Source: Candidatus Magasanikiibacteriota bacterium
Lineage (GTDB): Bacteria; Patescibacteriota; Patescibacteriia; Magasanikbacterales; GWA2-37-8
DNA length: 51,421 nt
NCBI GenBank assembly: GCA_023246655.1
Contig: JAHFHX010000007.1
Location: 1 to 51,421 of the forward strand
Direction: 5' to 3'
Shown here piece by piece: positions 1,864-42,302 of the stretch. Position 1 is the first letter of the stretch, and each line of letters opens with the position of its first letter. The position numbers and the translations under genes were made by a program. Under the pieces are notes generated by a model. That model worked only from the letters and a program-made list of their open reading frames with translations, did not search any database and had not been told where the DNA came from.

Positions 1864-3706
<1,843 letters not shown>

Positions 3707-18200: not shown

Positions 18201-21097
18201 ATTTGGCTAAATGTGGGAATGGTAAAATTGAACCAGGTGAGGTGTGTGATGATGGCAGGCTGAATGATACCTATAATCATTGCAATGCCCAGTGTACCGG
18301 ACTGGTTGCCCCCCAAGGTAACGGTTCGCCAGGATACTGTGGTGATAACAAAGTAAACCCTCAAAATGAGTTGTGTGACGTAGGCAATAAGATTTGTTTC
18401 GGTGGAATAAATGATAAACAACCATGCCAAAAGGCAGCTCAGTGTAATGAGGAGTTTACACTCAATAATCCACAAATTAATCAAGGAAAAACGAATTTGG
18501 CGGTGGTAATCTGTCAAATCGTCAACAATCCTCCGCCAGATTATAAATGCCAGGTGCTTGATTTTAATTTTCAATTTGGTTTGGCAACATTAGATCTTAG
18601 TTCGTGTAAAGGCAGTAATTGCGACTTGGCTTTTGATGCCCCGACCGCACAAATGTTTGGGTTAGGACAAGACGCTGTTAAAGTACCAGTGGAAGTTAAT
18701 TGGAGTAAATGTGCTTCAGATCCAGCCAAGGTCAAAAATGGGTTATTGTATGGCTACAACAAAAAAACTGATTCGTGCAATTTTGATTGCCAGTCCTACG
18801 GCCCGTATTGTGGTGATGGGGTAGTGCAAGATGAATTTGGTGAAGACTGTGATGGGAATCAATCATGTACTATCGATGGACATAACGGTCAGCGGTTATG
18901 TAATTTATGCTCAGCTACTGATGCGGCTACTCTGGTGGGATGGTGGAAATTAGATGAAAACAGTAAGATTTTTATTGATTCTTCCGGTAAAAATAATGTG
19001 GGCGGTTGCACGAATAACGATTGTCCTATCTTTATTGCTCAAGGTAAAACCCGAGGAGCTGCTCAATTCGATTCTAGCAGCTTTATTAAGATTGATCATT
19101 CGCCCTCCCTTGATTTTAAAACTGTGACAATTGAAGCGTGGGTCAAAACTGCTAAGGCTGGTTATCAGTCGGGAATTCATAGTTTCATTAAGAAACAAAA
19201 AGCACGATATGATGGAGCTAATCAACTTGATGATATTGATTTTCAGTTGGAGTATTATCATAATGTATCAAATGGCCAAATTACCGCCGTGCGCTTAGAC
19301 TCGGGAGTATTCGGTGGGGTGACGGCGGATTTAGTAACGCCGTTTGAACCTGGTGAATGGCACCACTTAGCTGTTACGATTGACGATCAAAAGCAAATTA
19401 AATTTTTTGCCGATGGCGAACTATTAACCAATGTTACTAGGGTATATCCGCTAGGGGGGAGCAGGCCAATAGCTAATGGGAATTTCCCTATTTTCATTGG
19501 TGGCCAGCTTGACGATGGTAGCGCTATTGATGAAGTGAAGATATATAACCGTGCCTTGGTGGCCGGGGAAATCAAAGATCATTTTGCTCATAATTGGGTA
19601 TGTCAAGTCAATGATCTTAAGGAATTGTCGGTTGCAACTCCAGGCACGTGTGGTGATGGTGTGGTGGATCAGAATACCGAGGTGTGTGATCGGGGAAAGG
19701 CCAATAATGGTATTGCTTGCGCACCATCCTATGGCAAATCTTGTTCCTACTGTTCAGTTGATTGCAAACATGTTATCGATGTGCAGCCCACGGAATATTG
19801 TGGGGATGGTACGATCAATGGTTCCGAAGTGTGTGACACGGATAATAGCGTAAGCCCAACGGTTCTTTATGCCCGGGATAAAGATACTACGAGTACTGAA
19901 CAAAATCTAACGAACCGTGGTTATAAAGTGCGTGCTTGTGTAGAAGAGCCTCAGCCATTTTATGTTAATAAGCTTAATCAGTCGTATAGCCAAACCTTTG
20001 CTAAGGGAACCAAAACCTGTGTTAATAATTGTTCAAAAATAATTGTTAAAGAAACCGGAACGAACAGTTGCGTGGTGTGCGGTATTGATCCGAACGGCGT
20101 TAGTATTAATGGTAATATTCTCAATGTGTTAGAGCCACAATCGAACGATCCGCTTTATATGGCCTTAGAAAAAGCTTATTTGGATATCATATCCCCCAAT
20201 ATTGCTATGGGGTTATTTCATGTGGAGAACCACGCAGTAACTAATGTCTCTTCCTTTATTAATTTAGATTATAAAACTCCCTCTACCTTCAATAGCAACA
20301 GTTTATGTTCTATTGGTACGCCACGGTATCAAGCTCTATTACAATATGATCCAAACCCCAGTCATATATTTGATTTCCCAATTGTCTCTAAACCGCAGCC
20401 TTGGCAGTATGATTTAATTCTTTCGCCGGTGATGAGCGCGGATGGTTTAAAAGATTCAAAAACCAACCCGCTCCCACAAAGCGCCACGCCGGATAACGTG
20501 CGCGTAGTCGTTAGTTGGCTCGGAGTCGGCGGAGCCGATTTTATTGGTGGTTTTGTAGGTTTCGACGCCCAACAAAATTCTTTTACCTACGAAGGTCCTA
20601 GTCTCATGCCGACACAAGGTACAAATTACTATACCCAGCCGCCGTCCAAAAAATTTAGTGATATTTGGTATCATGGTTTTGGTCAGACCGCGGGAGGCAT
20701 TAACGAAGCAGCCTTTACGGTTAATACAAAACAGATGCCGCTTGATTTTTATTCCTTTTACGTTCGTAGCCCGGGCTCCAATTTTCCCCTCAAAAAGTTT
20801 AAAAGTTTGGTAAAATTGAAGGTCGATATTTATCTACCTGACAATGATGGTGTGGTGCCTTTTAATCTATTCGCTCGACCGTACAAGACGTTTACTTTAG
20901 ATGCTGCTGATTTTTCGACCCAGAATCCAGCCGCTAATTATTGGCAAGTGTTCAACCTGGTGTTTGGTCAGGATCCTGGCCAGTGTATTCAACAAGGAAA
21001 TAGCATATTTTGTGAGCCTGGAAAGGACATATCATTAGTTAGACGAATCGTTCCGGTTAATAAGATTATTACTGCACCAGAAAGTTTTAGTCACTAA
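9278..21097 (+). CDS. Giant 3939-aa surface protein: pilin-like anchor, Ig-like and IPT/TIG domains, Myxococcus-type Cys-rich repeats, LVIVD propeller, GspG-like segment, LamG domain
   Basis: YAGYTWMTAAGNEEKIEQAKK; ISSVTPTQGSRGEYITIMGKNFG; CGNAIIEAGEDCD/CGDG repeats; LEVVDISNPASP; LVGWWKLDE..WHHLAVT..IDEVKIYNRAL. Confidence 0.88.
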   Translation: MKFIFAHMSQSKRLALITFLFTLVMGGVLIGATFAIAQEKPLDVGLTPIQPALGLAAFDIRIVVAKIIRAVLALLGLVALVLMLYAGYTWMTAAGNEEKIEQAKKILVNATIGLAIIFSSYAIVSFVIGKLVEATIQGQGGGGGGGGGNNPYFPRDAFYVDQLPAGGNVCIRNVHPVVVFNRNVVLDDGLQKNIIIEKVGEPGKAVPGTWSYADQKNTIIFAAQGDCGGGPADCFDASTTYRLIFKDVSQIKAEGSPDLLLNCSLKANCKNPVIFTTGEGVDRQPPTIKFDAPDPNTPLPLGPPVAVKISFTDDNGVQNIALRADGFFVGSQSIGGCQKSGSVTITWPTAFVGAGLHNLDSTGYDWAANKGTANVKVTLRPPHCFNGVRDEDETGLDCGGSCGSCGGDKCSQDSDCSSGYCEAGVCVNRMRITNVSPLSSAPGDYVTVSGLFFGTTTGKIYFASTSVPTAQDWVEAKLAQCIGAPKFNNWIPWQILVEAPGLSAGIKGPVRVVTASTTVNGVERKFTDQTNDNFGPVISDFTFTNQPRPSLCAAIPETAPPATSIALVGKNLGTLGGKSQILFGTSRATVNALTKNGLPNWTPNLINEVFVPLLGPSVVGIAAFNADGLESNGIRFIVQAGISADSPIISSVTPTQGSRGEYITIMGKNFGVVPGDILFDDQKNLPIKGNFSFPPVCGSSYWQDNQIVVKFDQERGVFGTTYVVRVQTATGKVSLPDSNYAFSLQPGQPGPGICRIDPVSGPVPLGVGQKLMLSGEYFGTDPVPYFWKLGADPKTTAGRSPGVKTTTSTRDGADEASTTPQLGAISGPVVISRTEDKKISNPVSFTANDCTKQDTCSTLGEYRCCSSGVDVGLCKLKSELCAGETRATAYVWRFSTQDIVAVPRVVERCNSATDEGKNIPTPAPNIQWDGINDNGDHHRVCRNAVATVEFSTTMDQNTVNNTTVLLKKCKDVTGNNCTENGSVALDSDSFQLRTAFGGEGGSRQYLEIKPQVTPWENNTWYQVVVTDALKSTGGKVNLTIAKDKPCGNVKNSAYCFVFKTDDQDCKLKAVVVTPYAYWTQVLEQPIKYRVLNTVFGDLNYFGNGLSTQHCILMDMSGYDWTWAAADKQYADIFGPNTKRQAQASALANTVNVGVPNDSVDIKATASTNTPGGLVSKTGVSPLIIDLSKPEVFDYWPNCLEACTNADVGVQFTTQMSNVNVNWNSVRLYKCVDENCFSTVELKANATPSVLQANRFIITIPHDDFQPNSLYKVSLSSTSTPVVQLWSMGKLNDLNSKGAPYKQEFSWRFRTKKEACKIDRLSIDPKDYQARFLNDRAVYTVQPYSAPDACAAAGQRLNPWAVSWDWVSSDPAVATVQSFKTQGKNNLCTATCVKRGSTVPSGVGVLYPVCGNAIIEAGEDCDSPDKSKGCGLDCRFLGNQDPKTCGDGIVDPTKGEACDPGDEKTKIACSSDCRHLGSTFAPQSKDVNTSICGNGFIGSGEDCDLGISPDVTTPTSSLGCSDKCVHFGTRLSTKWCYDHGDKNGQAGDYGGFSKVDFNKICSLAYSQCGDGIVSPDEDKDCDKGNGQHEKWCNDVCLYNSSDKKQCTPKDEGCDANGQYLGSSLLYATPSVCGDTIVGVGEDPECEKNVTQDHVGLLDPWSLVIGVGQGKLQPNSKPPAQQTNITASTNQQTKGGGTVSGSGKFSIPCGYTTDAQCQAYYKSSDYGVGGDSCCYLKPKLQTVFPVDKSTKVCPNTYIEAVFNKRIDEVTLKGNLLIARGLLGTSSSSPTPVYKGFIDSQKDAQVKLSGATAVGVIGKYAYVTAELSNALEVVDISNPASPAHVTALQGQTFMSPTAVAVASQSYLYVGADNTFQIIDSNIADQTKPKLLGALKDGDVINQQTAHLKGSYHGIAVDGNQAYVTSFLNGGLDGTLQVIDASDKNKPVPVISFSNQDKVNGQAINLPGALAITVANGYAYVVGYGGYLQIIDVHDPGKPLTLGSLGGLGVIYGTPIVVGDIAYVASYSSNKLWIINVQDKNKPVIVGSLANGTDGSYLSNPTAVRVLGKYAFIISNDEQNKSGSVGLEIVDISSSTLPRHVMAVPTKKSQPYGVMIASDYVYVTAYSGGALEIIDVADFNPLNSNTCLEDVTNLITQAGGDVGTFPWYKRWLYYAIAFLKNVWSSTAGAANPAPSRWCVVGDVGTAQVVPRTTTTSSVFVRLTRPLAYATSYAVILKEGIRDTNGVRIGTSTIPNIKNINWRFETDSAICEVKGANIVPPEVLFSRVGASTTLEAKATTANGAFIQSIPGFYAWDYLWGPPDNPFVQVAVTTSSLATTTAKNRNGEIDVWAAARITNNIYTPTQGVVATGRSHITVLLCENPWPPKDLYYKGQGPFTILPYEDSEVNNDGYDTVSDTFSNIPILPSKVVTEPKNGYFHFSTYYCADNGSVGTFDDLPYFRSVVQVTPQELEYSTKGTCEVTGKSCSNDGNCGQAYSTTTYTTDYNLFIGDKDGGVCGGTAAAPPTIRYFADKNNQSMGCNFAIDCLARQEFQDWAGKNKLSPDCFSDGIKTVLHCQKFQPLKRWLFTNKNNTDVMGIQVFANPKHLSAEQWYKKEKVAGGQGFAGQVSSLQLAGYNAVSDGNNVYIDALNYSTTTESLFSNIYLFSINSDAQADTRQVFEQLLKNLKFNTNLTNFGYCGPSIDKPLFEQTCRTDIDCPAGQTCSAQVDKLLRNNQRLHDLQTVDRALESYVKNQKIYPNLKEGTYLTGQTFSVWSSWSVLGNALGTGLPTDPVNQLGMAGTCGTSTQFFGKFCVQDSDCPQLNNATTTCVLHDPATGWSTADRRFSFACASSSYAYRYIFSTTTGYTFKSHFEDAVPLSKDSFTGFINGFGFSTTTRFGLSGTTFPANICAGDQEISTLNQGTCGDGQINWGRGEQCDPPGYKLYDKSTCQNNPNGSYTIKECDATCLWKAPQSIACKNLAKCGNGKIEPGEVCDDGRLNDTYNHCNAQCTGLVAPQGNGSPGYCGDNKVNPQNELCDVGNKICFGGINDKQPCQKAAQCNEEFTLNNPQINQGKTNLAVVICQIVNNPPPDYKCQVLDFNFQFGLATLDLSSCKGSNCDLAFDAPTAQMFGLGQDAVKVPVEVNWSKCASDPAKVKNGLLYGYNKKTDSCNFDCQSYGPYCGDGVVQDEFGEDCDGNQSCTIDGHNGQRLCNLCSATDAATLVGWWKLDENSKIFIDSSGKNNVGGCTNNDCPIFIAQGKTRGAAQFDSSSFIKIDHSPSLDFKTVTIEAWVKTAKAGYQSGIHSFIKKQKARYDGANQLDDIDFQLEYYHNVSNGQITAVRLDSGVFGGVTADLVTPFEPGEWHHLAVTIDDQKQIKFFADGELLTNVTRVYPLGGSRPIANGNFPIFIGGQLDDGSAIDEVKIYNRALVAGEIKDHFAHNWVCQVNDLKELSVATPGTCGDGVVDQNTEVCDRGKANNGIACAPSYGKSCSYCSVDCKHVIDVQPTEYCGDGTINGSEVCDTDNSVSPTVLYARDKDTTSTEQNLTNRGYKVRACVEEPQPFYVNKLNQSYSQTFAKGTKTCVNNCSKIIVKETGTNSCVVCGIDPNGVSINGNILNVLEPQSNDPLYMALEKAYLDIISPNIAMGLFHVENHAVTNVSSFINLDYKTPSTFNSNSLCSIGTPRYQALLQYDPNPSHIFDFPIVSKPQPWQYDLILSPVMSADGLKDSKTNPLPQSATPDNVRVVVSWLGVGGADFIGGFVGFDAQQNSFTYEGPSLMPTQGTNYYTQPPSKKFSDIWYHGFGQTAGGINEAAFTVNTKQMPLDFYSFYVRSPGSNFPLKKFKSLVKLKVDIYLPDNDGVVPFNLFARPYKTFTLDAADFSTQNPAANYWQVFNLVFGQDPGQCIQQGNSIFCEPGKDISLVRRIVPVNKIITAPESFSH

Positions 21098-21561: not shown

Positions 21562-21663
21562 TTGTCATCCCGAGCGAGGCTTCGCAGCCGACGAGGGATC
21601 TCTGTCCGGTTCGACAATTGGCCAAGTGAGCCAGAGATTCCTCCTTCGTCGTCGGAATGACAA
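21562..21663. repeat. GTCATCCCGAG...GGAATGAC palindromic element (REP/MITE-like)
   Basis: ttgtcatcccgagcgaggc...gagggatctct ... agagattcctc...ggaatgacaa. Confidence 0.85.
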
Positions 21664-27816: not shown

Positions 27817-27921
27817 TTGTCATTCCGAGGAGGCTCACGCCGACGAGGAATCTCTGTCCCAATCAATATTCGCCAAATAACAAGTGAGACAGAGATCCCT
27901 CCTGTGACGTCGGGATGACAA
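27817..27921. repeat. GTCATCCCGAG-family palindromic element
   Basis: ttgtcattccgaggaggc...gaggaatctctgtc ... gacagagatccctc...gggatgacaa. Confidence 0.85.
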
Positions 27922-30007: not shown

Positions 30008-31279
30008 CTAGTTAGGTAGCGGAAAATTCTTTGTAAATTCCCTTACTTCGTCGCGAATTTTTTTCAACTTTTCTGCATCTTGCCAATTTTGAATCGCCTC
30101 GTCAATCCACGTGGCGATTTTTTTCATTTCAGTTTCTTTCATACCTCTCGTTGTCAAAGCTGGTGTGCCCAGGCGAATGCCAGATGGGTCAAACGGCGTG
30201 CGTGGGTCATGGGGAATGGTGTTCTTATTGACGGTGATGCCGGCACTGCCGAGGGCTGCCTCGCCCTGTTTACCAGTGACACCTTTGCTCATTAAGTTGA
30301 TGAGGAGCAAATGCGACTCGGTGCCACCAGTTACTAATTCAAATCCTTTAGCTATCAGTTCATTAGCTAATACCGTGGCATTGGTTAACACCTGCCGGGC
30401 GTAGGCTTTAAATGCTGGTTGCAAAGCTTCTTTAAGCGCCACGGCAATGGCGGCGGTTTGGTGGTTATGCGGCCCACCCTGGATGCCAGGAATAATTGCT
30501 CGGTCAATAAGCGTGGGAATATTTTCTTTAGTACGCTCCACTTTTTTAAGTGGGTTAGACGGCTTGCCATTCGCGAGGATGATAGCACCACGCGGTCCAC
30601 GTAGCGTTTTGTGCGTAGTGGTGGTAACTACATCCGCAATACCAACCGGGTTAGGGTACACGCCACCCGCAATGAGACCAGCCACATGGCTCATGTCGGC
30701 GAGGAGGAATGCTCCAACTTCATCGGCAATTTCCTTGTACTTGGCCCACTCGTAGATGCGCGGATAAGCGCTCCCACCACCGATAATCATTTTTGGTTTA
30801 TGCTCATGCGCCAGGCGACGCATTTCATCAAGGTCAATATACCCATCCGGTCGGCAGCCATATTGAACACTTTTATAAATCGTTCCCGAGAAGTTGAGTT
30901 TAAGTCCGTGCGTCATGTGGCCCCCATGGGGAAGGCTAAGCCCCAGAACCGTATCACCCGGATCAAGCAATGCATAGTAAACCGCAAAATTCGCGGGGCA
31001 GCCAGAGTGCGGTTGCACGTTGGCATGGGTAGCACCAAACAATTCTTTTGCTCTATCACGCGCCAAATTTTCTACCGCATCAACATTTTCACAGCCGCCA
31101 TAATAGCGCATGCCCGGGTAGCCTTCGGAATATTTGTCTGTAAGGCGCGAGCCTAAAGCTTCCAGCACTGCCGGTGAGGTATGGTTTTCACTCGGAATCA
31201 TTTCCAAACCCTCACTTTGGCGCTCAATTTCTTTTTGGATGAGATTATAAATGTCAGGATCTTGTTGTTGAAGTTTCAT
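30008..31279 (-). CDS. glyA: Serine hydroxymethyltransferase
   Basis: IPSEN, KYSEGYPG.RYYGG, TTTHKTLRGPRG, GIRLGTPA. Confidence 0.98.
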   Translation of the reverse strand: MKLQQQDPDIYNLIQKEIERQSEGLEMIPSENHTSPAVLEALGSRLTDKYSEGYPGMRYYGGCENVDAVENLARDRAKELFGATHANVQPHSGCPANFAVYYALLDPGDTVLGLSLPHGGHMTHGLKLNFSGTIYKSVQYGCRPDGYIDLDEMRRLAHEHKPKMIIGGGSAYPRIYEWAKYKEIADEVGAFLLADMSHVAGLIAGGVYPNPVGIADVVTTTTHKTLRGPRGAIILANGKPSNPLKKVERTKENIPTLIDRAIIPGIQGGPHNHQTAAIAVALKEALQPAFKAYARQVLTNATVLANELIAKGFELVTGGTESHLLLINLMSKGVTGKQGEAALGSAGITVNKNTIPHDPRTPFDPSGIRLGTPALTTRGMKETEMKKIATWIDEAIQNWQDAEKLKKIRDEVREFTKNFPLPN

Positions 31280-31316: not shown

Positions 31317-31416
31317 TGTCATCCCGAGCGAGGCCTCGCGGCCGACGAGGGATCTCTGTCCGTTATTCGGTGAGCCAGAGATTCCTCACCCCTGCGACGG
31401 GGATTCGGAATGACAA
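31317..31416. repeat. GTCATCCCGAG-family palindromic element
   Basis: tgtcatcccgagcgaggc...gagggatctct ... agagattcctc...ggaatgacaa. Confidence 0.85.
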
Positions 31417-32947: not shown

Positions 32948-33250
32948 CATTTGTTATAACTAAGCAAGGTAACAAATAGAAATTACTTATCTTACATTAG
33001 CCAAATATAGGGTTTTGCGTCTAGATGCGTTTACAGCACATTTGGGCGTAGAACCTTAGGGTTCTATAAGTTCTTTACAATAATGGATTTGCTCAAAGTA
33101 GTGTCTTAGGGTGGAGCCAATGAGACCTTGATATTTTAGGGAATAGTAAATAGCTGTTTTCTTAAATATCAAGGTCTATGCTGCCACGCCCACCGCCATC
33201 ACGGCGAATGGGATAACGTTGCAGCAGCAGAGTTTCGCGAAGGAGGCCCC

Positions 33251-34063
33251 ATGTTGCCCGAGACCACCCCCCCCGTCATCAAGTTTGATTTTCCTTCCCT
33301 CGACGCGCAGGCTGCGATGTGGCGCCGTGTCGCCATCATCGTCGCCGTCGTCGCGACGGTGATCTGCGCCTCCCTCGGCGCCCTGGCCGGCGCCGTGCAG
33401 TACCGGCGCAACCAGGACGCCGCGGCCTGCCAGCACAACAGCGCCCCCCCCGCCGCGCAGCCGGCCGTCGCCATCGCGTCCCGGAAGGCCGTCGAGGCGC
33501 CCACGCCGTCGCCCACTCCCGCCCCGAAGGTGGCCAAGCGGCACCGCCGCACGCGCCTCACCCCGCCGGTCATCGCACCGCTCGTGATCGAGCCGGCCGC
33601 GGACCTCGCCGCGATCCTCGCTAAGTCGGGGGGCATCGGCACCGCCGGCATCCTGGCGGAGTTCCGCCCCCTCCAGCCCCGCGGCATCGGCGCCCCCCGC
33701 TTTCGATCGCTCGGCGGGCAAGACCCGACAGCTCTTGAGGAGCTCGAGGCGGCTCCAATTACCGTTCGGGGCCACCTCGAAATCGACCTCAGCGACGAGG
33801 TTGAGACGCCGCCGCAGCTGGCGGTCTTCGTCGGGGCCTTCCCCGGCGAGGAGCCTCGCGAGATGAACCTCGCCCTGCTCCACCGGAGCATCGAGCGCCG
33901 GCTTGCGGAGCTGAAGGCGAACCCGCCCCCGGCCGCGCCGGCCGAGCACGCCCCCACCTTCGTGGAGGAGCCGTGCCACCCAGTCGACGAGATGACCGGG
34001 TACTGCGCCCGCAAGAAGGCGGCCGACCCCGGGTGGGGATGGTCGCCTCCGGCCGGCAACTAA
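33251..34063 (+). CDS. GC-rich hypothetical single-TM Pro/Ala-rich protein
   Basis: SD aggagg at 33241, G/C-ending codons in this frame, TM VAIIVAVVATVICASLGALAGAV. Confidence 0.7.
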   Translation: MLPETTPPVIKFDFPSLDAQAAMWRRVAIIVAVVATVICASLGALAGAVQYRRNQDAAACQHNSAPPAAQPAVAIASRKAVEAPTPSPTPAPKVAKRHRRTRLTPPVIAPLVIEPAADLAAILAKSGGIGTAGILAEFRPLQPRGIGAPRFRSLGGQDPTALEELEAAPITVRGHLEIDLSDEVETPPQLAVFVGAFPGEEPREMNLALLHRSIERRLAELKANPPPAAPAEHAPTFVEEPCHPVDEMTGYCARKKAADPGWGWSPPAGN

Positions 34064-34208
34064 CCCCGGCACAGCAGGGGGGGCAAGGGCCGAGCAAATC
34101 CCGTCCCGCCGCACCATCGCTGGTGCAGGCGGGCGAAGTAGCGCGGGGGACGATTCAGACGTCCCCCCATCAATCCTTGTTCATAATTATATTGTGACCA
34201 GAGATTAT

Positions 34209-34247: not shown

Positions 34248-36038
34248 TTACACATTTTTTACCATATACGTTTTTTGCAGTCGGTATCCAAGGTGGCGAT
34301 AATAATCACGGACGCCCACCCCAGAGATAACAGCCAGTTTGTGTAGCTTCTGTTTTTTAACAATCCGTTCTGCCTCGTGCACCAACTTTTTTCCAAGGCC
34401 GGTATGTTGGGTTAATTCCTTTTGATGTTTACCAATGCCCACGAGTTGGCCATAGGTGTGGAGTTCGCGGATGTAGGCGGCGAAGGGTCTTTGTTTGTCA
34501 TTCTGAGGCGGAGCCGAAGAATCTAGTTGTCGCGAACTAGATCCTTCGCTTCGCTCTGGATGACAGATACGAAGTCGGCAAAACGCAAACACTACCTGTC
34601 GTTTGGTATCTTCGAAGCTTAAAAAATATTCCGTGCCGCCGTGTGTCTTATAGTGGTCAACAAATAATTTCGGTTTCAAATTTTGTATCGTTTTATATGT
34701 ATCGTGTATCATGTTCGCGGCGTGCCCAATTTCTCGGCATCGCAAACATTTACAGGCGCGGCCTTCTTTTTTTAATTCCGCTTGAATCACTTGCCGCAAG
34801 TTTGTTACCTTGTTTCCGTTTTCAATATATTGCCCGGGAATATCGCGAATGAGGCGGGAGATGCGGCAGTAGCGGGGGACAGTGGTTTTAAATTCTTTAA
34901 GAATTCGAATGAGATCTTCCGTGGGGTACGTCTTAAATTTTCCGGCTCTGAACCAATCGTACAACTCTGAACCCTTAACCACCGAGCACGGGTAAATTTT
35001 AATCATGTCGGGGCGGTATCCTGGGTCGGTAAAAATAGTTTTAAGCATTGCCAAATCAGTTTCTGGTGTTGCGCCCGGGAGTTGGGGCATAAGGTGAAAG
35101 TCTGTTTTAAAGCCGTAATTACGAAGTAGCTCGGCGGCATCTTTCGCCTGTTCGGCGCTATGGCCGCGTTTCGTTAATTTTAAAATGTCGTTATCCGTAT
35201 GCTGAATTCCCAGTTCAATTCTGGTCGTGCCCATCTCCCGCATTTGCCACATTGATTTTGGAGTAATACAATCCGGCCGCGTCTCCAGCGTGAGGCCGAT
35301 AATTCGGTGCTTGGCATGTTCATTAAGTCGTTGTTGCTGTTTAAGCTCATCCCGAAGATCAGCGAGCGAGGAATTTTCGGTCAACTTCAATTCCCCCCTC
35401 GAGGGGGGTAGTGGGGGTGTAAGACCGTTGCGTCGTAAAAGGTAGGTGAGTGGCGAACCACGCAGAGGACTCACACCCCCCATGAGCCCCCCTCGAGGGG
35501 GGAATTCATTACACGCTTTGAACGACTCCAGCACAAACCAGTATTGGTAGGGCAGGGGATATGAATTCCAGGTGCCACCTTTGATGATGAGTTCAATTTT
35601 ATCGGTGGGGTGGCCATTATTCTCCAAGGCCTCAATGCGCCTGGCCATTTGTTCGTAGGGGTCAAATTTTAAGGCAAGCGCTCGCATGGCGGCTGGTTCT
35701 TCCGATAAGTAACTTTTTGGCATTCGTTCATCCAATGGGCAATACACACATTGCCCAGGGCAGGGGTAAGGTTTTACCAATGAGGTGACAATAGTGACCC
35801 CCGAGAGCGTGCGCACCGCTCGGCGTGTGAGGAGTTTTTCTAAATTTTTATTTGGCTGAATGTTTTTATTTTTTAAAAGTTTGTGGTACGCTGAAAGGAG
35901 TTCAGTTTTGGTTGGTAACGGCGAGCCCCTTTTTCCTGGTATGCCCCTGGACAGTTGCCGTTTAAGGATATTAAAATCAACCTCATTTTTAAGAGGATTT
36001 GTAAGAGCAGCGAGAATAATTTTTTCTGTGAGGGACAT
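34248..36038 (-). CDS. elp3: Elp3 radical SAM/KAT tRNA uridine(34) carboxymethylase with two in-frame palindromic insertions
   Basis: VRTLSGV, CPGQCVYCP, PKSY, ETRPD, ELGIQ, KIYP, RLIRDIP, C.CLRCRE, RELHTYG, QHTGLGKKL, VISGVGVRDYY. Confidence 0.93.
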   Translation of the reverse strand: MSLTEKIILAALTNPLKNEVDFNILKRQLSRGIPGKRGSPLPTKTELLSAYHKLLKNKNIQPNKNLEKLLTRRAVRTLSGVTIVTSLVKPYPCPGQCVYCPLDERMPKSYLSEEPAAMRALALKFDPYEQMARRIEALENNGHPTDKIELIIKGGTWNSYPLPYQYWFVLESFKACNEFPPRGGLMGGVSPLRGSPLTYLLRRNGLTPPLPPSRGELKLTENSSLADLRDELKQQQRLNEHAKHRIIGLTLETRPDCITPKSMWQMREMGTTRIELGIQHTDNDILKLTKRGHSAEQAKDAAELLRNYGFKTDFHLMPQLPGATPETDLAMLKTIFTDPGYRPDMIKIYPCSVVKGSELYDWFRAGKFKTYPTEDLIRILKEFKTTVPRYCRISRLIRDIPGQYIENGNKVTNLRQVIQAELKKEGRACKCLRCREIGHAANMIHDTYKTIQNLKPKLFVDHYKTHGGTEYFLSFEDTKRQVVFAFCRLRICHPERSEGSSSRQLDSSAPPQNDKQRPFAAYIRELHTYGQLVGIGKHQKELTQHTGLGKKLVHEAERIVKKQKLHKLAVISGVGVRDYYRHLGYRLQKTYMVKNV

Positions 36039-36044
36039 TACATT

Positions 36045-36597
36045 TAATGCTAATAACGAATGTATGCAAATCTACCAATGTGCGAATTAATAGTGTGAGT
36101 AATTTATAGCAAGCATATACTATTATGGCTTATCTTGTCCATCCTGAATTGTCCTATCAAGTTGTTGGTATTCTGTATGAGGCACATAATGAAGTCAGCA
36201 GGTTCAGTAGCGAACAAGAAATAGGGGATATAATTGCTTTGCGATTAAAAATCGTAGGAATACCGTTTGTGAGAGAGTTTAATTTGCAGCCAATCCATCG
36301 GGGGGAACACAACGGCAGGCATCGAGTAGATTTTTTAATAGAAGATAAAATTGTATTAGAAATAAAAACTAAAAAATTTTTGACTAAAGAGGACTATTAC
36401 CAAGTACAACGCTACCTTAAACATCTGAATTTGAAGTTGGGAATTTTAGTAAATTTTAGAGATGAACGCCTTCATCCAAAACGTATCCTAAATAGTGTCG
36501 GCAAGGAATAAGCCTTTTTTAATTATGCTGCTGTAATTATTAGTTGGTATTATTATTCGCACATTAGTAGATTTGCATACATTCGTTATTAGCATTA
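36045..36597. mobile_element. Inverted-repeat-bounded GxxExxY cassette
   Basis: 43-bp inverted repeats at 36045-36087 and 36555-36597 (one mismatch) enclosing a single gene. Confidence 0.65.
36125..36511 (+). CDS. GxxExxY family PD-(D/E)XK nuclease-like protein
   Basis: ELSYQVVGILYEAHNE, RVDFLIEDKIVLEIK, QVQRYL...LKLGILVNF; namesake motif degenerate (RFSSEQEI). Confidence 0.88.
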   Translation: MAYLVHPELSYQVVGILYEAHNEVSRFSSEQEIGDIIALRLKIVGIPFVREFNLQPIHRGEHNGRHRVDFLIEDKIVLEIKTKKFLTKEDYYQVQRYLKHLNLKLGILVNFRDERLHPKRILNSVGKE

Positions 36598-36598
36598 T

Positions 36599-37303
36599 AT
36601 GCATCATCTTATACAAAAAACCCGCCAAGATTACAATAAAATCGCTCAGCACTTCTCTGGCACGCGGTATGATGTGTGGCCGGAACTAGAACAGTTTAAA
36701 CCACTTATTAAAGATGGTCAACGGATTTTGGATTGGGGGTGTGGGAACGGCCGACTGCTGCTTTTAATTGGAGAAAGGGCGGCGCATTATGTAGGGGTTG
36801 ACCAGAGCATAGAGCTGTTAAAAATTGCTCGGCACAAGCACCTATTAGCGATAAAAGCTGGGCGAGCACGATTCTACTCAACGGCCCGGCGTGAAAAAAA
36901 GTTTCCCTCAAACTATTTTGATTTGGTTTTTATGGTGGCTTCATTTCATCATCTACCGGATAGTGCTAGTCGTTTGGCGTTACTTAAAAAGGTGCAGCAG
37001 GAATTAAAGCCAGAGGGAAAGCTTGTTATAACCGTGTGGAATTTAAGCAGTACGTGGGCTCGCCAGGTGTTACAAAAGAAGGGCTGGCATCAGATTGGTA
37101 AACAAGATTTTCTAATTCCTTGGAAAGATAACCGTACCGGGAAAGTTATTGTCGAACGGTATTATCATCATTGTACCCCCACCGAAATGCGTGGCCTGCT
37201 TAAAGAAGCTGGCTTTAAGGTCATAAGGCTTGGGTATGGCCCGGGGGTTAAGACCAGCGAAAGAAAAGGCCGTAACCTCATTGTGGTGGCTACTAAAAAG
37301 TAA
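36599..37303 (+). CDS. Class I SAM methyltransferase, Trm9/ALKBH8-like
   Basis: YNKIAQHFSGTR..W, LDWGCGNGR, ASFHH, LITVW-like LVITVW, DFLIPW, RYYH, N..VVATK. Confidence 0.8.
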   Translation: MHHLIQKTRQDYNKIAQHFSGTRYDVWPELEQFKPLIKDGQRILDWGCGNGRLLLLIGERAAHYVGVDQSIELLKIARHKHLLAIKAGRARFYSTARREKKFPSNYFDLVFMVASFHHLPDSASRLALLKKVQQELKPEGKLVITVWNLSSTWARQVLQKKGWHQIGKQDFLIPWKDNRTGKVIVERYYHHCTPTEMRGLLKEAGFKVIRLGYGPGVKTSERKGRNLIVVATKK

Positions 37304-38486: not shown

Positions 38487-38708
38487 AGTTTAATGCTAGA
38501 AAGTTGGTAACAATAGCACATTTTTATCTATTTGTCAAGCTGAAAGCAATCGATTTTATAATCAGGCTACCATGAGGATATGCGAAATAGAAAGCTGCGA
38601 AAGGATAATTGATTTTTCGCGTATTAAAAAAATAAAACTTCTGTTAAGAGAAGTGGGGGTGGGAGCGTGCAGCCGGCCTTGTTAGGCTAGTATGCACACT
38701 CCCGGTGG

Positions 38709-39236
38709 TCAGTGCCGGTGGTGGTGCCGGCGGTGATGCTCGTGGTGATGGTGCCGGTGTCGCTTGGGCGCCGTCGGCACGTCTGCCGGTTCGGGCTCGG
38801 CCGCTTCCGGCGTGGCGGCCTCCGCCTGGCTCGGCGGGGCAGACAGTGCCGCCGGCTGCGGTGCTGCTGCGGCCGGCGCGCTGTCAGCAGCCGCATCGGC
38901 TGCAGTTGCGCCTGCGTCCGGCGGCGGGGGCAGGTCGGCCGGAGCGGCGAGCACCGCGTCGGTCACGGCTGCGCCTGCGTCCGGCGGGACGCGCAGATCG
39001 GCGGGAGCGTGGGCCGCATCGGCCGCGGTCCCTGCGTCCGCCGCTGCGTAGCGGGGTTCCACCGGCGTGGGTGCCGGCGGGGCGGGCGAGTCGGGGATAT
39101 AGATGGCGCCCGTGATGATGAGCGCCAAGAGGAGAAGACAAAAAACTCCCACCCACGGCCTGGACCGCTCGATGAGCGGGTCCAGGTGCTTCTCGTCGAA
39201 CTGGTCCATGCGGACCAAGAGCTTTTGCAACCACAT
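38709..39236 (-). CDS. GC-rich single-TM protein with DAG repeats and a His/Arg tail
   Basis: SD aaggagga upstream of ATG 39236; TM WVGVFCLLLLALIITGAIYI; PPDAG repeats; KRHRHHHHEHHRRHHHRH. Confidence 0.7.
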   Translation of the reverse strand: MWLQKLLVRMDQFDEKHLDPLIERSRPWVGVFCLLLLALIITGAIYIPDSPAPPAPTPVEPRYAAADAGTAADAAHAPADLRVPPDAGAAVTDAVLAAPADLPPPPDAGATAADAAADSAPAAAAPQPAALSAPPSQAEAATPEAAEPEPADVPTAPKRHRHHHHEHHRRHHHRH

Positions 39237-39371
39237 GATTTTTTCCTCCTTGGTTAATTTAATAACTACCACAAAAATAGGCTTTTGTCAATGGCAGATG
39301 AGTCAAATTTTAGGTTGTGGATAAGTAGCCTTGAGAGATATAAAAAACTTTGTTATGGTAGTTATAGATTT

Positions 39372-39937: not shown

Positions 39938-40207
39938 TTGTCAAGCAACGGAGGCGGGGTCGCCATGACCCCGGATGAAGAAGCAAATTACACCCGGTGG
40001 CGGCACGAAAGTGCCGACACCAAGTTCAAGAGTTTTGAGCTGCTCCCCGTGCCGCAGGCCGTGATCCGTCTGCCCTGCGGCTGTACGAATGGGCGCGGCC
40101 AGGAGCAGCTCTGGGTCGAGCGTGACCCCAAGAGCCCGCAGCGGCCCGCGCCGCTCAAATGTCGCCGCTGCCAGGCGACGCTCCCCGCGGTTCCGCGCCG
40201 CCCTTGA
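39938..40207 (+). CDS. GC-rich small protein with CxC...CxxC (possible Zn ribbon)
   Basis: SD aaggagg before TTG 39938 (alternative ATG 39965); LPCGC...KCRRC. Confidence 0.55.
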   Translation: MSSNGGGVAMTPDEEANYTRWRHESADTKFKSFELLPVPQAVIRLPCGCTNGRGQEQLWVERDPKSPQRPAPLKCRRCQATLPAVPRRP

Positions 40208-40349
40208 GGAGGAATTTTTCTCTGGGAGGGTACCCAACCAATGGTGCTGCCCTCCCCCCTATATACAATTAAATTTTACTCACCAGCGAATCTCTAAAGA
40301 TATTCGGAGATTAGCTGGTGTGTAGCAATGCACCAGAAAGGAAAAAGGC

Positions 40350-40445
40350 ATGGACCCGGTGCCAATTGAATGCCCCGGCCCGTACGGGCAGCCTCGCCCG
40401 CGGCCGAAACCTCGGCCCAAACCCCTGCCTCCCAAGCCGAATTGA
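40350..40445 (+). CDS. 31-aa Pro/Arg/Lys-rich peptide MDPVPIECPGPYGQPRPRPKPRPKPLPPKPN
   Basis: aaagga SD, ATG 40350, TGA 40443; translated by hand. Confidence 0.5.
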   Translation: MDPVPIECPGPYGQPRPRPKPRPKPLPPKPN

Positions 40446-40525
40446 TCCCGCCCCGTGTGCTGGGATCGCACTCCGGGGGCCGCCGTCACACGCGGTTGTG
40501 CCCCCACTCTCCATCATTAAAAGCC

Positions 40526-40555
40526 TTGACAGGTTTATATAAAATAACATAGAAT
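40526..40555 (+). promoter_or_regulatory. Sigma70 promoter
   Basis: TTGACA-18-TAGAAT. Confidence 0.65.
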
Positions 40556-40568
40556 GTTGGAATCATTT

Positions 40569-40655
40569 ATGACCGCTTCGCAAAACTTTGTTATTATTAC
40601 GATCATTGTAGCCCTCTTGTTGCCGTGGGGTGATTATGGTGTTGTCAAAAGATAA
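40569..40655 (+). CDS. Putative attenuator leader peptide MTASQNFVIITIIVALLLPWGDYGVVKR
   Basis: Ile/Val/Leu run, starts just after the promoter, overlaps the antiterminator. Confidence 0.6.
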   Translation: MTASQNFVIITIIVALLLPWGDYGVVKR

Positions 40656-40705
40656 CGAAACACAAAACCATAATCACCCCTGAGGCAACTCGGGGGTTTT
40701 TGTTT
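40627..40705 (+). promoter_or_regulatory. Attenuator-like switch 2
   Basis: 14-bp ggggtgattatggt/accataatcacccc competes with terminator acccctgag-GCAA-ctcgggggt-ttttgttt. Confidence 0.7.
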
Positions 40706-40817
40706 AAATTGTTCTTTCCACCAGTTCTCAATCGCTCAGCCAAAAGGGAATATTGTTTCTTTTTGAATGAGCGATTGGGACGAAAGTTTTAAAAGCTCAG
40801 AGACACGAGGAGTCAAC

Positions 40818-40982
40818 ATGCCCAGTGACGAACGCCCGCTCCCCCCGTTTGCGATTGGCGACGAGCCAGTCGCCCAGGAACCCCAACCGCCCAAGAAAAA
40901 AGTGGGTGAGACTGAAGCCGAGCGCAATGCTCGTCTTCGCCACCCCGCCGGTGAGGCGGACATGTCGGATTTCCTGGTCTGA
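40818..40982 (+). CDS. GC-rich 54-aa hypothetical protein
   Basis: SD aggag before ATG 40818; followed by long hairpin cctagg...cctagg. Confidence 0.55.
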   Translation: MPSDERPLPPFAIGDEPVAQEPQPPKKKVGETEAERNARLRHPAGEADMSDFLV

Positions 40983-41147
40983 GCTTTGCGCCTAGGGCGC
41001 GCTACCCACGTCCATCACCATGGATGCGGGCGGCGCACCTAGGCCGGCTCGTTGTGAGCAAAATTAGTTTTGCTTATATCAGCTGATGTTCTAGGTAACG
41101 ATGGTGTTGCCTGGAACTAACTGACCATTTTCAGAGGAGACTAGTAA

Positions 41148-42302
41148 ATGGAAACTCGCCGGACGCGGATCGCGGTCGTGGGAGCAGGCCTCAACAGTGC
41201 CCTGCTCGCAACCGCCCTCGTCCGGGCGGGTATCGATGATTTCGTCGTCGTCGATCAATTCCCTTTCCTTAGCCGTTGGTTTAACATAATCCAGCGGCAA
41301 GGGGCAAACTCCATGTGGACGGCCTGGCCGTATCACCTGGAGTGGGGAGTGGACGAAAGTCTGCGGCGTTTTGCGGAAACGCAGGCCGTTGCCGACTTCT
41401 CGGGCAACCCGAGCGTTGCTCTGTTCAACGCTCATGCCCAAGGTGTAATTCAGGAATACCACCTCGAGCAGCACCGCCTGGCTGGGGTGGTAACTAACAT
41501 TGAACGCGGCGCAGGCGGTTGGCAGCTTACCGTGACGGGTGAGCAGCCTGCCTCCATCGAGGCGTCTCGTGTCGTCATCGCGCTCGGCATCGGCGCTCCG
41601 GCCATGCCGCTCAATGGTTGTCCGCCGTCGGCTCTGGTGAGCCATGTTGCCAGCTTGGACCTCAGTGCGCTAAAGGCGCATGACTGGCAAGGTCGCTCGG
41701 TCTTGGTGGTAGGCCGGGGTCCGTCGGCGTTTGTAGCCGCCAAGCGTTTTGCCGAAGCGGCCGCCGCGGTGACCGTGGTTGCCAAAGGCGGCAGCCTCAC
41801 CGCAACGAATGGGGACTGCGCCAGTGCTTGGCAACCACCTGCTGGGCGGCTCTACCAAGAGTTCGCTCGCCTCGGGAGCGCTGAGCGCCGGGAGCGGCTA
41901 CGCTCTGCCTGGATCACCAACACCACCGCCACAGGCGCTGCCTGGAGCGATCTACTCCGCCACTACCCAATCAACCATATCTCTACGGAGGCAGGGTTGA
42001 CTCACTGGTCCACAGCGGGTGGTGTGGTGAGGGTAGACAGCATAGGCAACTGCTTTCACCAAGTGGTGATGGCAACCGGGTACCGGTGGGATGTTGCGGA
42101 GATTGGTTTCCTTCGCAATCTCCTTCCACGCCTTCCCGTCGTAGGTGGGCTCCCCATCCTCAACCAAACCCTTGAGGCCTTACCTGGTCTTCACTTCCTT
42201 GGCGGCTTGTCCGCTTTGGAGCTGGGGCCGGCGGCGCTCGATCTTACCGGGGCTACCTACGGGGTGGGTAGGCTCCGCAACGCACTTCTTTCCCTTGTCT
42301 AG
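41148..42302 (+). CDS. FAD/NAD(P)-dependent oxidoreductase (flavoprotein monooxygenase-like)
   Basis: IAVVGAGLNS, VLVVGRGPSA, MATGY, GLHFLGGLSALELGP; SD gaggag. Confidence 0.8.
   Translation: METRRTRIAVVGAGLNSALLATALVRAGIDDFVVVDQFPFLSRWFNIIQRQGANSMWTAWPYHLEWGVDESLRRFAETQAVADFSGNPSVALFNAHAQGVIQEYHLEQHRLAGVVTNIERGAGGWQLTVTGEQPASIEASRVVIALGIGAPAMPLNGCPPSALVSHVASLDLSALKAHDWQGRSVLVVGRGPSAFVAAKRFAEAAAAVTVVAKGGSLTATNGDCASAWQPPAGRLYQEFARLGSAERRERLRSAWITNTTATGAAWSDLLRHYPINHISTEAGLTHWSTAGGVVRVDSIGNCFHQVVMATGYRWDVAEIGFLRNLLPRLPVVGGLPILNQTLEALPGLHFLGGLSALELGPAALDLTGATYGVGRLRNALLSLV

What the first reader, a model, noticed from the sequence alone, without database searches (positions are those of the whole stretch)
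36045..36597. GxxExxY nuclease cassette with 43-bp inverted repeats filling the whole elp3/MTase intergenic space
Seen: 42/43 identical inverted repeats enclose only the GxxExxY gene. The left repeat begins 6 nt from the elp3 start codon and the right ends 1 nt before the MTase ATG, so promoters for both genes must lie within the cassette and both genes have nearly identical 5' leaders. No transposase is present. Inference: a minimal mobile or invertible element using a PD-(D/E)XK nuclease, possibly the autonomous form of gene-less palindromes, or an RNA stem that is processed out.
Basis: partly seen in the sequence, partly recalled or inferred. Interest (0 to 1): 0.75.

Follow-up and report, generated by a model that had tools for sequence, protein, structure and literature searches.

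The report
Nuclease gene cassette between divergent genes
A small nuclease gene bracketed by 43-base inverted repeats has been inserted exactly between the back-to-back start codons of two conserved tRNA-modification genes, and it looks like a selfish one-gene cassette built like the intervening sequences of ribosomal RNA.

Summary
Arms 36045-36087 and 36555-36597 match at 42/43 and enclose only a 128-aa GxxExxY (PF13366) PD-(D/E)XK gene.

The cassette is a lineage-specific insertion. In 75 of 75 informative Patescibacteria loci, elp3 and the methyltransferase sit back to back (median gap 3 nt, maximum 367). None carries a GxxExxY gene there.

49 of 75 relatives have a promoter-like motif for elp3 (TTGTAA-N17-TATAAT) inside the first methyltransferase codons. 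The cassette separates this motif from elp3, and the window's copy reads TATAAG.

Other GxxExxY genes are also wedged between co-oriented housekeeping genes. Of 11 examined, 5 have inverted and 3 have direct flanking repeats.

The arm has no second copy in 1.37 Mb. The window's gene-less palindromes belong to another family, whose gene-bearing form in a relative encloses a GIY-YIG gene.

Best reading: a selfish, intervening-sequence-like nuclease cassette. Its arms supply identical short leaders, possibly with weak outward promoters, or form an RNase III-type stem in read-through RNA. The mobility mechanism is inferred, not shown. I rate it a new variant of a known kind, of moderate interest.

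The parts
36045..36087 (.). Left terminal inverted repeat (43 nt). With a CAT at 36041-36043 it extends to 47 nt.
36555..36597 (.). Right terminal inverted repeat, 42/43 complementary to the left arm. It extends to the methyltransferase ATG (36599-36601).
36125..36511 (+). GxxExxY-family PD-(D/E)XK nuclease gene, 128 aa. D69, E79 and K81 are intact. The residue at the namesake Y position is I33.
   Evidence: PF13366 1.3e-20; TIGR04256 2.8e-20, profile 1-115 of 116. (conserved columns). (model pLDDT 90.4; nearest folds are Cas4, lambda exonuclease and Hjc).
36041..36598 (.). Inferred inserted segment, about 553-558 bp, 33% GC. The boundaries are ambiguous within 36039-36045 and 36597-36598. Removing 36041-36598 leaves CAT-TA-ATG.
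   Evidence: relatives: median gap 3 nt. (GC 0.333 against 0.47 for elp3, 0.451 for the methyltransferase and 0.457 for the window).
34248..36038 (-). elp3 (radical SAM/GNAT tRNA U34 modification enzyme), the left neighbour, with an intact N-terminus.
   Evidence: TIGR01211 3.4e-156..
36599..37303 (+). Class I SAM methyltransferase, the right neighbour. Its best solved relative is a tRNA methyltransferase chain (5cm2_Z).
36608..36636 (-). Remnant of the promoter-like motif for elp3 that is conserved in relatives: TTGTAA (36636-36631), 17-nt spacer, TATAAG (36613-36608). The final T of the -10 is replaced by G.
   Evidence: 49 of 75 relatives have TTGnnn-N16-18-TAnnnT here (36 with TATAAT), against 1 control window.
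36693..36721 (-). Distal promoter-like site pointing toward elp3 (TTGACC-17-TAAACT), at the position of a second cluster of hits in relatives.
   Evidence: It overlaps conserved codons, so function is not shown.
36059..36086 (-). Weak outward promoter-like motif in the left arm: TTCGCA-16-TACATT, 8 of 12 matches. The -10 ends 20 nt before the elp3 ATG.
   Evidence: It falls below the 9/12 threshold.
36556..36583 (+). The same outward motif in the right arm. The -10 ends 15 nt before the methyltransferase ATG.

Best explanation
The segment from about 36041/36045 to 36597/36598 is a lineage-specific insertion of a one-gene selfish cassette. It consists of an AT-rich GxxExxY-family PD-(D/E)XK nuclease gene bounded by 43-47-bp terminal inverted repeats. 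It landed exactly between the back-to-back start codons of a conserved divergent pair, elp3 and a Trm9-like tRNA methyltransferase.

Shown: the ancestral state at this site is start codon against start codon. In most relatives a conserved promoter-like motif pointing toward elp3 lies inside the first methyltransferase codons. The cassette now sits between that motif and elp3.

Inferred: the insertion is tolerated because of the arms. Each arm places the same 43 nt directly in front of a start codon, with the same weak outward promoter-like TTCGCA-N16-TACATT ending 15-20 nt before the ATG. That would imitate the short leaders implied by the motif's position in relatives. In any read-through transcript, on either strand, the arms pair into a stem of about 48 bp whose base abuts both start codons. 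This is the architecture that RNase III cuts out of ribosomal RNA intervening sequences.

Also inferred: the nuclease serves the spread or retention of the cassette. It would cleave empty or palindromic target sites, and repair would then copy the cassette in. It would not serve tRNA modification.
For: Insertion:
- The methyltransferase is divergent and adjacent to elp3 in 75 of 80 loci. The other 5 are cut at the contig end.
- The gap has a median of 3 nt, a 75th percentile of 22 and a maximum of 367.
- A GxxExxY gene is present at the junction in 0 of 75 loci. Only 3 GxxExxY genes occur in 1.37 Mb.
- The cassette is 33% GC, against 45-47% for its neighbours.

Displaced promoter-like motif:
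- Promoter-like sites toward elp3 occur in the first 150 nt of the methyltransferase gene in 56 of 73 loci, against 8 and 9 of 73 in control windows.
- TTGnnn-N16-18-TAnnnT occurs in 49 of 75 loci against 1 control. The window reads TTGTAA-17-TATAAG.
- The motif is missing in 11 of 19 relatives with a gap of 29 nt or more, against 15 of 56 others (Fisher p = 0.024).

Arms belong to the gene family:
- Of 11 other GxxExxY loci, flanking inverted repeats reach p <= 0.02 in 5 (L067, L082, L084, L085 with 30 nt, L087 with 28 nt).
- Direct repeats reach p = 0 in 3 loci (L084, L086, L088).
- The window's flanks share an 11-nt exact match and a 13/15 match with the corresponding L067 flanks.
- In the 6 annotated plasmid loci, and in L067 and L018, the gene is co-oriented with its neighbours in tight gaps, for example fabD-GxxExxY-fabG.

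Stem: both strands fold with the terminal stem, z = -6.8 and -7.5.

Analogue: the Coxiella 23S intervening sequence is 428-444 nt. It has a 28-bp terminal stem with one mismatch, one small ORF and lower GC than its genome, and RNase III excises it (PMC4990558, passages read).

The same architecture occurs in relatives around a GIY-YIG gene, a PF05635 gene and a DUF559 gene.
Against: - No transcript, cleavage or mobility data exist.
- The arm has no second copy anywhere in the data held, so mobility of this particular element is not shown.
- The closest relative is only 68% identical in Elp3. No population-level empty site or recent event can therefore be seen.
- The outward promoter match in the arms is weak (8/12) and was not called at the 9/12 threshold.
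- No conserved promoter toward the methyltransferase was found in elp3 of relatives (8 of 73, against 2 and 5 in controls). Read-through into the methyltransferase is therefore unsupported.
- Flanking repeats are absent at 2 of 11 other GxxExxY loci (L081, L083) and marginal at L018 (p = 0.064) and L089 (direct repeat, p = 0.02). On the broad null, L067 and L018 score only 10 and 8.
- Fold matches are generic for PD-(D/E)XK (best E = 3e-4, TM about 0.5) and do not name a substrate.
Confidence: 0.5

Rival explanations
1. A minimal terminal-inverted-repeat transposon in which the PD-(D/E)XK nuclease acts as the transposase. It would be the autonomous parent of gene-less palindromes.
For: - The repeats are terminal, near-perfect and 43 bp long.
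- The cassette is an insertion.
- In L039 a GIY-YIG gene lies between 38-nt perfect arms that match the halves of the gene-less TGTCATYC palindromes. Of the 28 paired elements of that family, 26 are 51-132 nt and 3 lie in the window. So nuclease-in-palindrome elements with gene-less relatives do exist in these genomes.
Against: - The arm has no other copy in the window or in 1.32 Mb of relatives.
- GxxExxY genes are rare here, 3 in 1.37 Mb.
- The window's palindromes are a different family.
- No clear target-site duplication is visible.
- From general knowledge, a PD-(D/E)XK nuclease alone has no known strand-transfer activity.
- Three other GxxExxY loci have direct rather than inverted flanking repeats.
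Confidence: 0.15
2. Palindrome first. A gene-less hairpin element inserted at the junction, as in several relatives. The GxxExxY gene later inserted into the apex of that hairpin, so the arms are not part of the gene's own cassette.
For: - Sixteen relatives have junction gaps of 50 nt or more. By eye, most of these fold into one dominant hairpin of unrelated sequence, with arms up to about 36-60 nt, for example L025, L080 and L067 (no shuffle control was run).
- Ribosomal RNA intervening sequences also sit at helix tips (PMC4990558).
Against: - Both window flanks share short matches with the corresponding flanks of the L067 GxxExxY gene, which lies at a different site.
- L085 and L087 also have inverted repeats that fill the gaps around their GxxExxY genes.
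- No gene-less copy of this arm is known.
Confidence: 0.15
3. A host-evolved regulatory palindrome. One leader was duplicated in inverted orientation so that elp3 and its partner methyltransferase share the same leader or operator. The GxxExxY gene is an incidental passenger.
For: - The two genes are a conserved pair in 75 of 75 informative loci and are probably functionally linked. The best solved relative of the methyltransferase is a tRNA methyltransferase.
- The 43 nt before both start codons are 42/43 identical.
- The ancestral promoter-like motif has a damaged -10.
Against: - Relatives have essentially no leader to duplicate (gap 0-13 nt).
- Flanking repeats recur around GxxExxY genes in unrelated contexts and phyla.
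- The arms are as AT-rich as the cassette.
Confidence: 0.08
4. An invertible DNA switch. Recombination between the arms flips the cassette and changes which flank receives read-through or antisense transcription.
For: Inverted repeats of 43 bp at 98% identity can support inversion.
Against: - No invertase or recombinase family was found among the 32 window ORFs scanned.
- Because the arms are symmetric, inversion would leave both flanking leaders unchanged.
- In the 8 other loci where neighbour orientation was checked, the GxxExxY gene is co-oriented with its downstream gene.
Confidence: 0.04
5. A chance repeat or an assembly artefact.
For: None was found.
Against: - None of 100 shuffles gave a second match.
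- The flank-repeat score of 41 compares with a 99th percentile of 12 among 1772 ORFs.
- Both neighbouring genes and the enclosed gene are intact and full length.
Confidence: 0.01

Closest known systems
ORF-bearing intervening sequences of 23S rRNA, for example the Coxiella burnetii element (PMC4990558, passages read)
   Same: Both are a few hundred bases long and have terminal complementary sequences that form a long, near-perfect stem (28 bp there, 43-47 bp here). Both carry a single small ORF, have lower GC than the host, are distributed sporadically, and have no transposase.
   Different: This cassette is not in an rRNA helix. It lies between two divergent protein genes. Its ORF is a PD-(D/E)XK nuclease (PF13366) rather than a four-helix-bundle protein (PF05635). 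RNase III excision has not been tested here.
Free-standing homing endonuclease genes, such as the seg and mob genes of T4-like phages (recalled, not checked in a call)
   Same: A small nuclease gene is wedged into a tight gap between conserved genes. It is present at the site in one lineage and absent in relatives, and usually co-oriented with its neighbours.
   Different: Homing endonuclease genes are not known for long flanking inverted repeats. The families differ (GIY-YIG and HNH there). Cleavage of the empty site is not shown here.
REP/REPIN elements with their RAYT gene flanked by inverted REPs (recalled, not checked in a call)
   Same: A single gene is bracketed by inverted copies of a repeat and is proposed to be the mobilising partner of gene-less hairpin repeats.
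   Different: RAYT is a Y1 HUH transposase, and REPs are present in many copies. Here the protein is a PD-(D/E)XK nuclease and no other copy of the arm was found.
MITE-like TGTCATYC palindromes of these Patescibacteria and the GIY-YIG cassette in L039
   Same: The layout is the same: arm, one nuclease gene of about 110-130 aa, arm. It occurs in the same group of organisms.
   Different: The arms and the nuclease family are unrelated. That family has many gene-less copies, and the window's 43-nt arm has none in the data held.

Membership tests
GxxExxY protein family (TIGR04256 / Pfam PF13366 PDDEXK_3) | Score above the curated cut-off over the full profile length | tested here: met
   PF13366 74.4 bits (cut-off 22), profile 2-111 of 117. 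TIGR04256 72.8 bits (cut-off 35), profile 1-115 of 116.
GxxExxY protein family (TIGR04256 / Pfam PF13366 PDDEXK_3) | PD-(D/E)XK catalytic core (D ... E-x-K) | tested here: met
   D69 and K81 are invariant and E79 is at least 90% conserved among 38 sequences. All three are present in the window protein. The fold was modelled at pLDDT 90.4, with PD-(D/E)XK nucleases as nearest structures.
GxxExxY protein family (TIGR04256 / Pfam PF13366 PDDEXK_3) | The namesake G-x-x-E-x-x-Y motif (the motif position itself is recalled) | tested here: inconclusive
   E30 is invariant. Three residues later the consensus is Y, but the window protein has I33 and its closest relatives have V or I. This looks like a clade-level deviation.
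rRNA intervening sequence (IVS) | Terminal complementary sequences forming a long stem around the element | tested here: met
rRNA intervening sequence (IVS) | Located inside an rRNA helix | tested here: not met
   The element lies between elp3 and a methyltransferase gene. The only rRNA gene in the window is the 16S gene at 1864-3705.
rRNA intervening sequence (IVS) | Excised from the transcript by RNase III | not testable with these tools
   Only the predicted stem is available.
Terminal-inverted-repeat transposon / parent of MITEs | Terminal inverted repeats | tested here: met
Terminal-inverted-repeat transposon / parent of MITEs | Encodes a recognised transposase (DDE, HUH, serine or tyrosine recombinase) | tested here: not met
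   The only ORF inside is PF13366. No such family was found among the 32 window ORFs scanned.
Terminal-inverted-repeat transposon / parent of MITEs | Multiple copies or gene-less derivatives sharing the arms | tested here: not met
   no other copy in the window plus 80 loci (1.37 Mb). The rest of this genome and the metagenomes could not be searched.
Terminal-inverted-repeat transposon / parent of MITEs | Direct target-site duplication | tested here: inconclusive
   outside the 47-nt repeat the flanks read CATTA and CATCA (4/5). This is too short to judge.
Free-standing homing endonuclease gene | Nuclease gene present at a site that is empty in relatives | tested here: met
   0 of 75 junctions are occupied. 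A second site, upstream of glyA, is occupied in 2 of 66 loci.
Free-standing homing endonuclease gene | The enzyme cleaves the empty allele | not testable with these tools
   This needs purified protein and the CAT-TA-ATG junction DNA.
Invertible promoter or gene switch | Nearby site-specific recombinase and both orientations present in the population | tested here: inconclusive
   No recombinase family was found among the scanned ORFs. Orientation in reads could not be tested.

The most novel reading that the evidence does not exclude
GxxExxY nucleases, together with small GIY-YIG, DUF559 and four-helix-bundle genes, may define a widespread and undescribed class of minimal one-gene mobile cassettes. 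They would carry no transposase. They would insert at palindrome centres or tight gene junctions, carry flanking repeats that the nuclease or RNase III recognises, and seed the gene-less palindromes that litter Patescibacteria genomes. Under this reading the window's element is an intact, recently active example that has rewired the expression of two tRNA-modification genes.
Probability: 0.2. Interest if true: 0.85.

Novelty: new variant of a known kind. Interest (0 to 1): 0.55.

Why it matters
PF13366/GxxExxY is a large protein family. The 2012 PD-(D/E)XK survey lists it as function 'Unknown' (PMC3424549, passage read). My full-text searches for GxxExxY, PDDEXK_3, PF13366 and TIGR04256 found no paper that describes its genomic behaviour.

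This locus gives a clean before-and-after picture. The conserved junction is start codon against start codon, with a promoter-like motif embedded in the neighbouring gene. Here it is split by a repeat-bounded nuclease cassette. That makes three questions directly testable:
- How do such cassettes move?
- How is an insertion tolerated at a site with no spare intergenic DNA?
- Do intervening-sequence-type elements operate outside rRNA?

The locus also links small nuclease genes to the origin of gene-less palindromes in reduced genomes.

Tried and rejected
- Hot spot for palindromes at the junction: not supported. With arms of at least 18 nt at 85% or more, 125 hairpins occur in 1.37 Mb and only 3 of 75 junction loci hold one. 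An earlier blastn-based count missed short-loop hairpins and was discarded.
- Conserved promoter toward the methyltransferase inside elp3: not found (8 of 73, against 2 and 5 in controls).
- Other copies of the arm: none.
- Phage records: no GxxExxY match by tblastn.
- Plasmid records: only 3, then 8, records matched.
- Solved structures by sequence profile: nothing meaningful (best E = 0.012).
- Rfam around the cassette: no match at E <= 1.
- Homodimer prediction for the nuclease: no verdict.
- The 66-nt extension of the repeat into both coding regions: treated as unproven, because the extra matches are mostly A-runs.
- Papers on GIY-YIG genes with miniature inverted repeats in bacteria: none relevant among 5 listings.
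- Patescibacteria palindrome search: 5 listings, none on this subject.

Full report
**Observation.** The 43-nt sequence at 36045-36087 recurs once in the window, reverse-complemented at 36555-36597 with one mismatch. No second match arose in 100 dinucleotide-preserving shuffles. Allowing one mismatch, the repeat runs 47 nt, from a CAT at 36041-36043 to the methyltransferase ATG at 36599-36601. The elp3 start codon (36038-36036, minus strand) is 6 nt from the left arm. The methyltransferase ATG is 1 nt from the right arm. The only gene inside is 36125-36511 (+), a 128-aa protein. It matches PF13366 (1.3e-20) and TIGR04256 'GxxExxY protein' (2.8e-20) over the whole profile. The neighbours are Elp3 (TIGR01211, 3.4e-156) and a class I SAM methyltransferase. 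The best solved relative of the methyltransferase is chain 5cm2_Z, labelled tRNA methyltransferase (8.5e-20). I recall this entry as a Trm9-Trm112 complex, but that identification comes from memory.

**It is an insertion.** A scan of one genome per species with the Elp3 protein returned 80 loci. Most records that carry an informative organism name are Candidatus Magasanikbacteria or other Patescibacteria, and the best identity is 68%. The methyltransferase is divergent and immediately adjacent to elp3 in 75 of them. In the other 5, elp3 lies at the contig edge. With start codons assigned by extrapolating the alignments, the gap between the two start codons has a median of 3 nt, a 75th percentile of 22 nt and a maximum of 367 nt. 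The window has 560 nt. No relative has a GxxExxY gene at the junction. A profile built from 95 homologues found only three such genes in all six-frame ORFs of the window plus 80 loci, 1.37 Mb in total. The other two, in L067 and L018, both lie just upstream of glyA, a position occupied in 2 of the 66 loci that contain glyA. The typical gap cannot hold even one arm, so both arms are part of the extra DNA. Removing 36041-36598 restores CAT-TA-ATG. The boundaries cannot be placed more exactly than 36039-36045 and 36597-36598. The segment is 33% GC, against 47% for elp3, 45% for the methyltransferase and 46% for the window. No close relative is available, so the age of the insertion and any population-level polymorphism stay unknown.

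**What the insertion displaced.** In relatives, the first 150 nt of the methyltransferase gene, read toward elp3, contain sigma-70-like sites in 56 of 73 loci. Control windows 300 and 450 nt deeper have them in 8 and 9 of 73. The alignment shows TTGTAA, 17 nt, then (TG)TATAAT, ending 6-24 nt before the methyltransferase start codon. The motif is conserved even where the methyltransferase proteins are only 30-35% identical. A strict pattern, TTGnnn-N16-18-TAnnnT, is present in 49 of 75 loci (36 with TATAAT, 35 with TTGTAA), against 1 control window. If this motif is the elp3 promoter, elp3 would be transcribed in relatives with a very short leader or none. That it functions as a promoter is inferred from conservation. 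The window keeps TTGTAA-17-TATAAG at 36636-36608, with the last T of the -10 replaced by G. The cassette lies between this site and elp3. Among relatives, the motif is missing in 11 of 19 loci with a gap of 29 nt or more, against 15 of 56 others (Fisher p = 0.024). This fits decay of the old promoter once something is inserted. No comparable conserved promoter toward the methyltransferase was found inside elp3 (8 of 73, against 2 and 5).

**What the arms could do.** Each arm carries the same outward motif TTCGCA-16-TACATT (8 of 12 matches). Its -10 ends 20 nt before the elp3 ATG and 15 nt before the methyltransferase ATG. This is weak and was not called at the 9/12 threshold. Its position does resemble the short leaders implied in relatives. 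Folding 36009-36606 (minus strand) and 36030-36630 (plus strand) as RNA gives, on both strands, a terminal stem of about 48 bp whose base abuts both start codons. The z-scores are -6.8 and -7.5. The single mismatch is G-U on the minus-strand RNA and C-A on the plus-strand RNA, read from the sequence. One substitution proves nothing.

**Are flanking repeats a family trait?** I examined 11 other GxxExxY loci: L067, L018 and nine places on eight plasmid records from six phyla. Each was tested against 500 shuffles of its own flanks.
- Inverted repeats reach p <= 0.02 in 5 loci: L067 (0.018), L082 (0.004), L084 (0.006), L085 (30 nt, p = 0) and L087 (28 nt, p = 0).
- L018 gives p = 0.064.
- Direct repeats reach p = 0 in 3 loci (L084, L086, L088).
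- L081 and L083 show neither kind.
- L089 has only a marginal direct repeat (p = 0.02).

On the broader null of 1772 ORFs, L067 and L018 score only 10 and 8. The window scores 41 and the 99th percentile is 12. In L085 and L087, as in the window, the arms fill the gaps to the neighbouring genes. The window's downstream flank shares an exact 11-mer, and its upstream flank a 13/15 match, with the corresponding flanks of L067. In the 8 other loci where I checked neighbour orientation, the gene is co-oriented with its neighbours in tight gaps. One example sits between fabD and fabG.

**Related architectures nearby.** In the relatives' DNA, three other small genes lie between inverted repeats:
- a GIY-YIG gene between 38-nt perfect arms (L039);
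- a PF05635 '23S rRNA intervening sequence protein' gene between 26-nt arms (L024);
- a DUF559 gene between 21-nt arms that are themselves palindromic (L007).

Most other members of these families in the same DNA lack such repeats: 4 of 5 GIY-YIG genes, and 1 of 2 DUF559 genes has only a weak one. The L039 arms are the halves of a gene-less palindrome family with TGTCATYC termini. That family has 90 termini in 33 of 81 sources and 28 paired elements, 26 of them 51-132 nt long. Three lie in the window, at 21563-21662, 27818-27920 and 31317-31415. They are unrelated to the 43-nt arm, which has no other copy in 1.37 Mb.

**The protein.** D69, E79 and K81 are conserved and present, as are E30, Q93 and Y97. 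The namesake Y is I33 here and V or I in the nearest clade. The model is confident (pLDDT 90.4). Its nearest solved folds are Cas4 SSO0001 (E = 3e-4, TM 0.52), lambda exonuclease and archaeal Hjc resolvases. This is a generic minimal PD-(D/E)XK core and names no substrate.

**Comparison with what is known.** The closest architecture in print is the ORF-bearing intervening sequence of 23S rRNA. The Coxiella element is 428-444 nt, has a 28-bp terminal stem with one mismatch and a bulge, one small ORF and lower GC than the genome, and RNase III excises it. Its mobility is unexplained (PMC4990558, passages read). The present element differs in three ways: it lies outside rRNA, it sits between divergent protein genes, and it carries a nuclease. 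The 2012 survey of the PD-(D/E)XK superfamily lists PF13366 as function 'Unknown' with multiple transfers (PMC3424549, passage read). The other papers that mention GxxExxY or PF13366 do so only in passing (search listings; one passage read). Supplements were not consulted.

**Verdict.** The element is best read as a selfish, intervening-sequence-like nuclease cassette inserted at a junction that had no intergenic DNA. Its arms now provide both genes' immediate upstream sequence. Insertion, displacement of the promoter-like motif and recurrence of flanking repeats are shown. Promoter activity of the arms, RNA processing and the nuclease's role in spread are inferred.

Noticed in passing
L001-L080, the first ~70 nt of the methyltransferase gene; window 36608-36636: A conserved promoter-like motif for elp3, TTGTAA-N17-(TG)TATAAT, is embedded in the first codons of the divergent methyltransferase gene in 49 of 75 relatives. 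This implies near-leaderless elp3 mRNA and dual coding and regulatory constraint on those codons.
   Followed up: yes
window 34248-37303 and 75 loci: elp3 and a methyltransferase form a conserved back-to-back pair across Patescibacteria. The methyltransferase's best solved relative is a tRNA methyltransferase (5cm2_Z, which I recall as Trm9). This suggests a bacterial two-step U34 modification module.
   Followed up: partly
window 21563-21662, 27818-27920, 31317-31415; L039 16977-17351: Gene-less palindromes of about 100 nt with TGTCATYC...GATGACA termini occur three times in the window and widely in relatives. In L039 the same arms (38 nt, 100% identical) enclose a 109-aa GIY-YIG nuclease gene, which looks like an autonomous and non-autonomous pair.
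   Followed up: partly
window 35389-35506 and about 34496: A perfect 20-nt-arm hairpin and a TGTCATTC terminus lie inside the elp3 reading frame. They add in-frame peptide segments (PPRGG...SRGEL and HPERSEGS...). The L018 and L039 Elp3 proteins have different or no insertions at these places.
   Followed up: partly
L039 9573-9860: A second, independent gene insertion at the same elp3/methyltransferase junction. It is a 95-aa ORF with no Pfam match, in a 367-nt gap and without strong flanking repeats.
   Followed up: partly
L084, L086, L088: Some GxxExxY genes are flanked by direct repeats of about 20-70 nt rather than inverted repeats. The repeat duplicates the sequence that precedes the next gene.
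   Followed up: partly
window 1864-3705: The 16S rRNA gene is 1842 nt long against a 1533-position model. It has a 110-nt insertion near model position 80, and further excess length that I did not locate.
   Followed up: partly
window 33001-34100, 38700-39270, 40000-42000: Islands of 54-66% GC lie in a 46% GC window, with long overlapping ORFs on both strands. The plausible genes 33251-34063 (+) and 38709-39272 (-) encode proteins with Pro/Ala-rich or His-rich tails and have no Pfam match.
   Followed up: no
window 9278-21097: A 3939-aa ORF has a T4SS-pilin-like N-terminus plus Big_5, TIG, LVIVD and Laminin_G_3 domains. It is preceded by a 745-aa ORF with a similar N-terminus.
   Followed up: no
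window 30008-31279 compared with L013, L014, L025, L053, L067: The window's glyA is 79-84% identical to that of these loci, whereas their Elp3 is only 52-63% identical to the window's. Most other loci show about 58-60% for glyA. This discordance was not explained.
   Followed up: no
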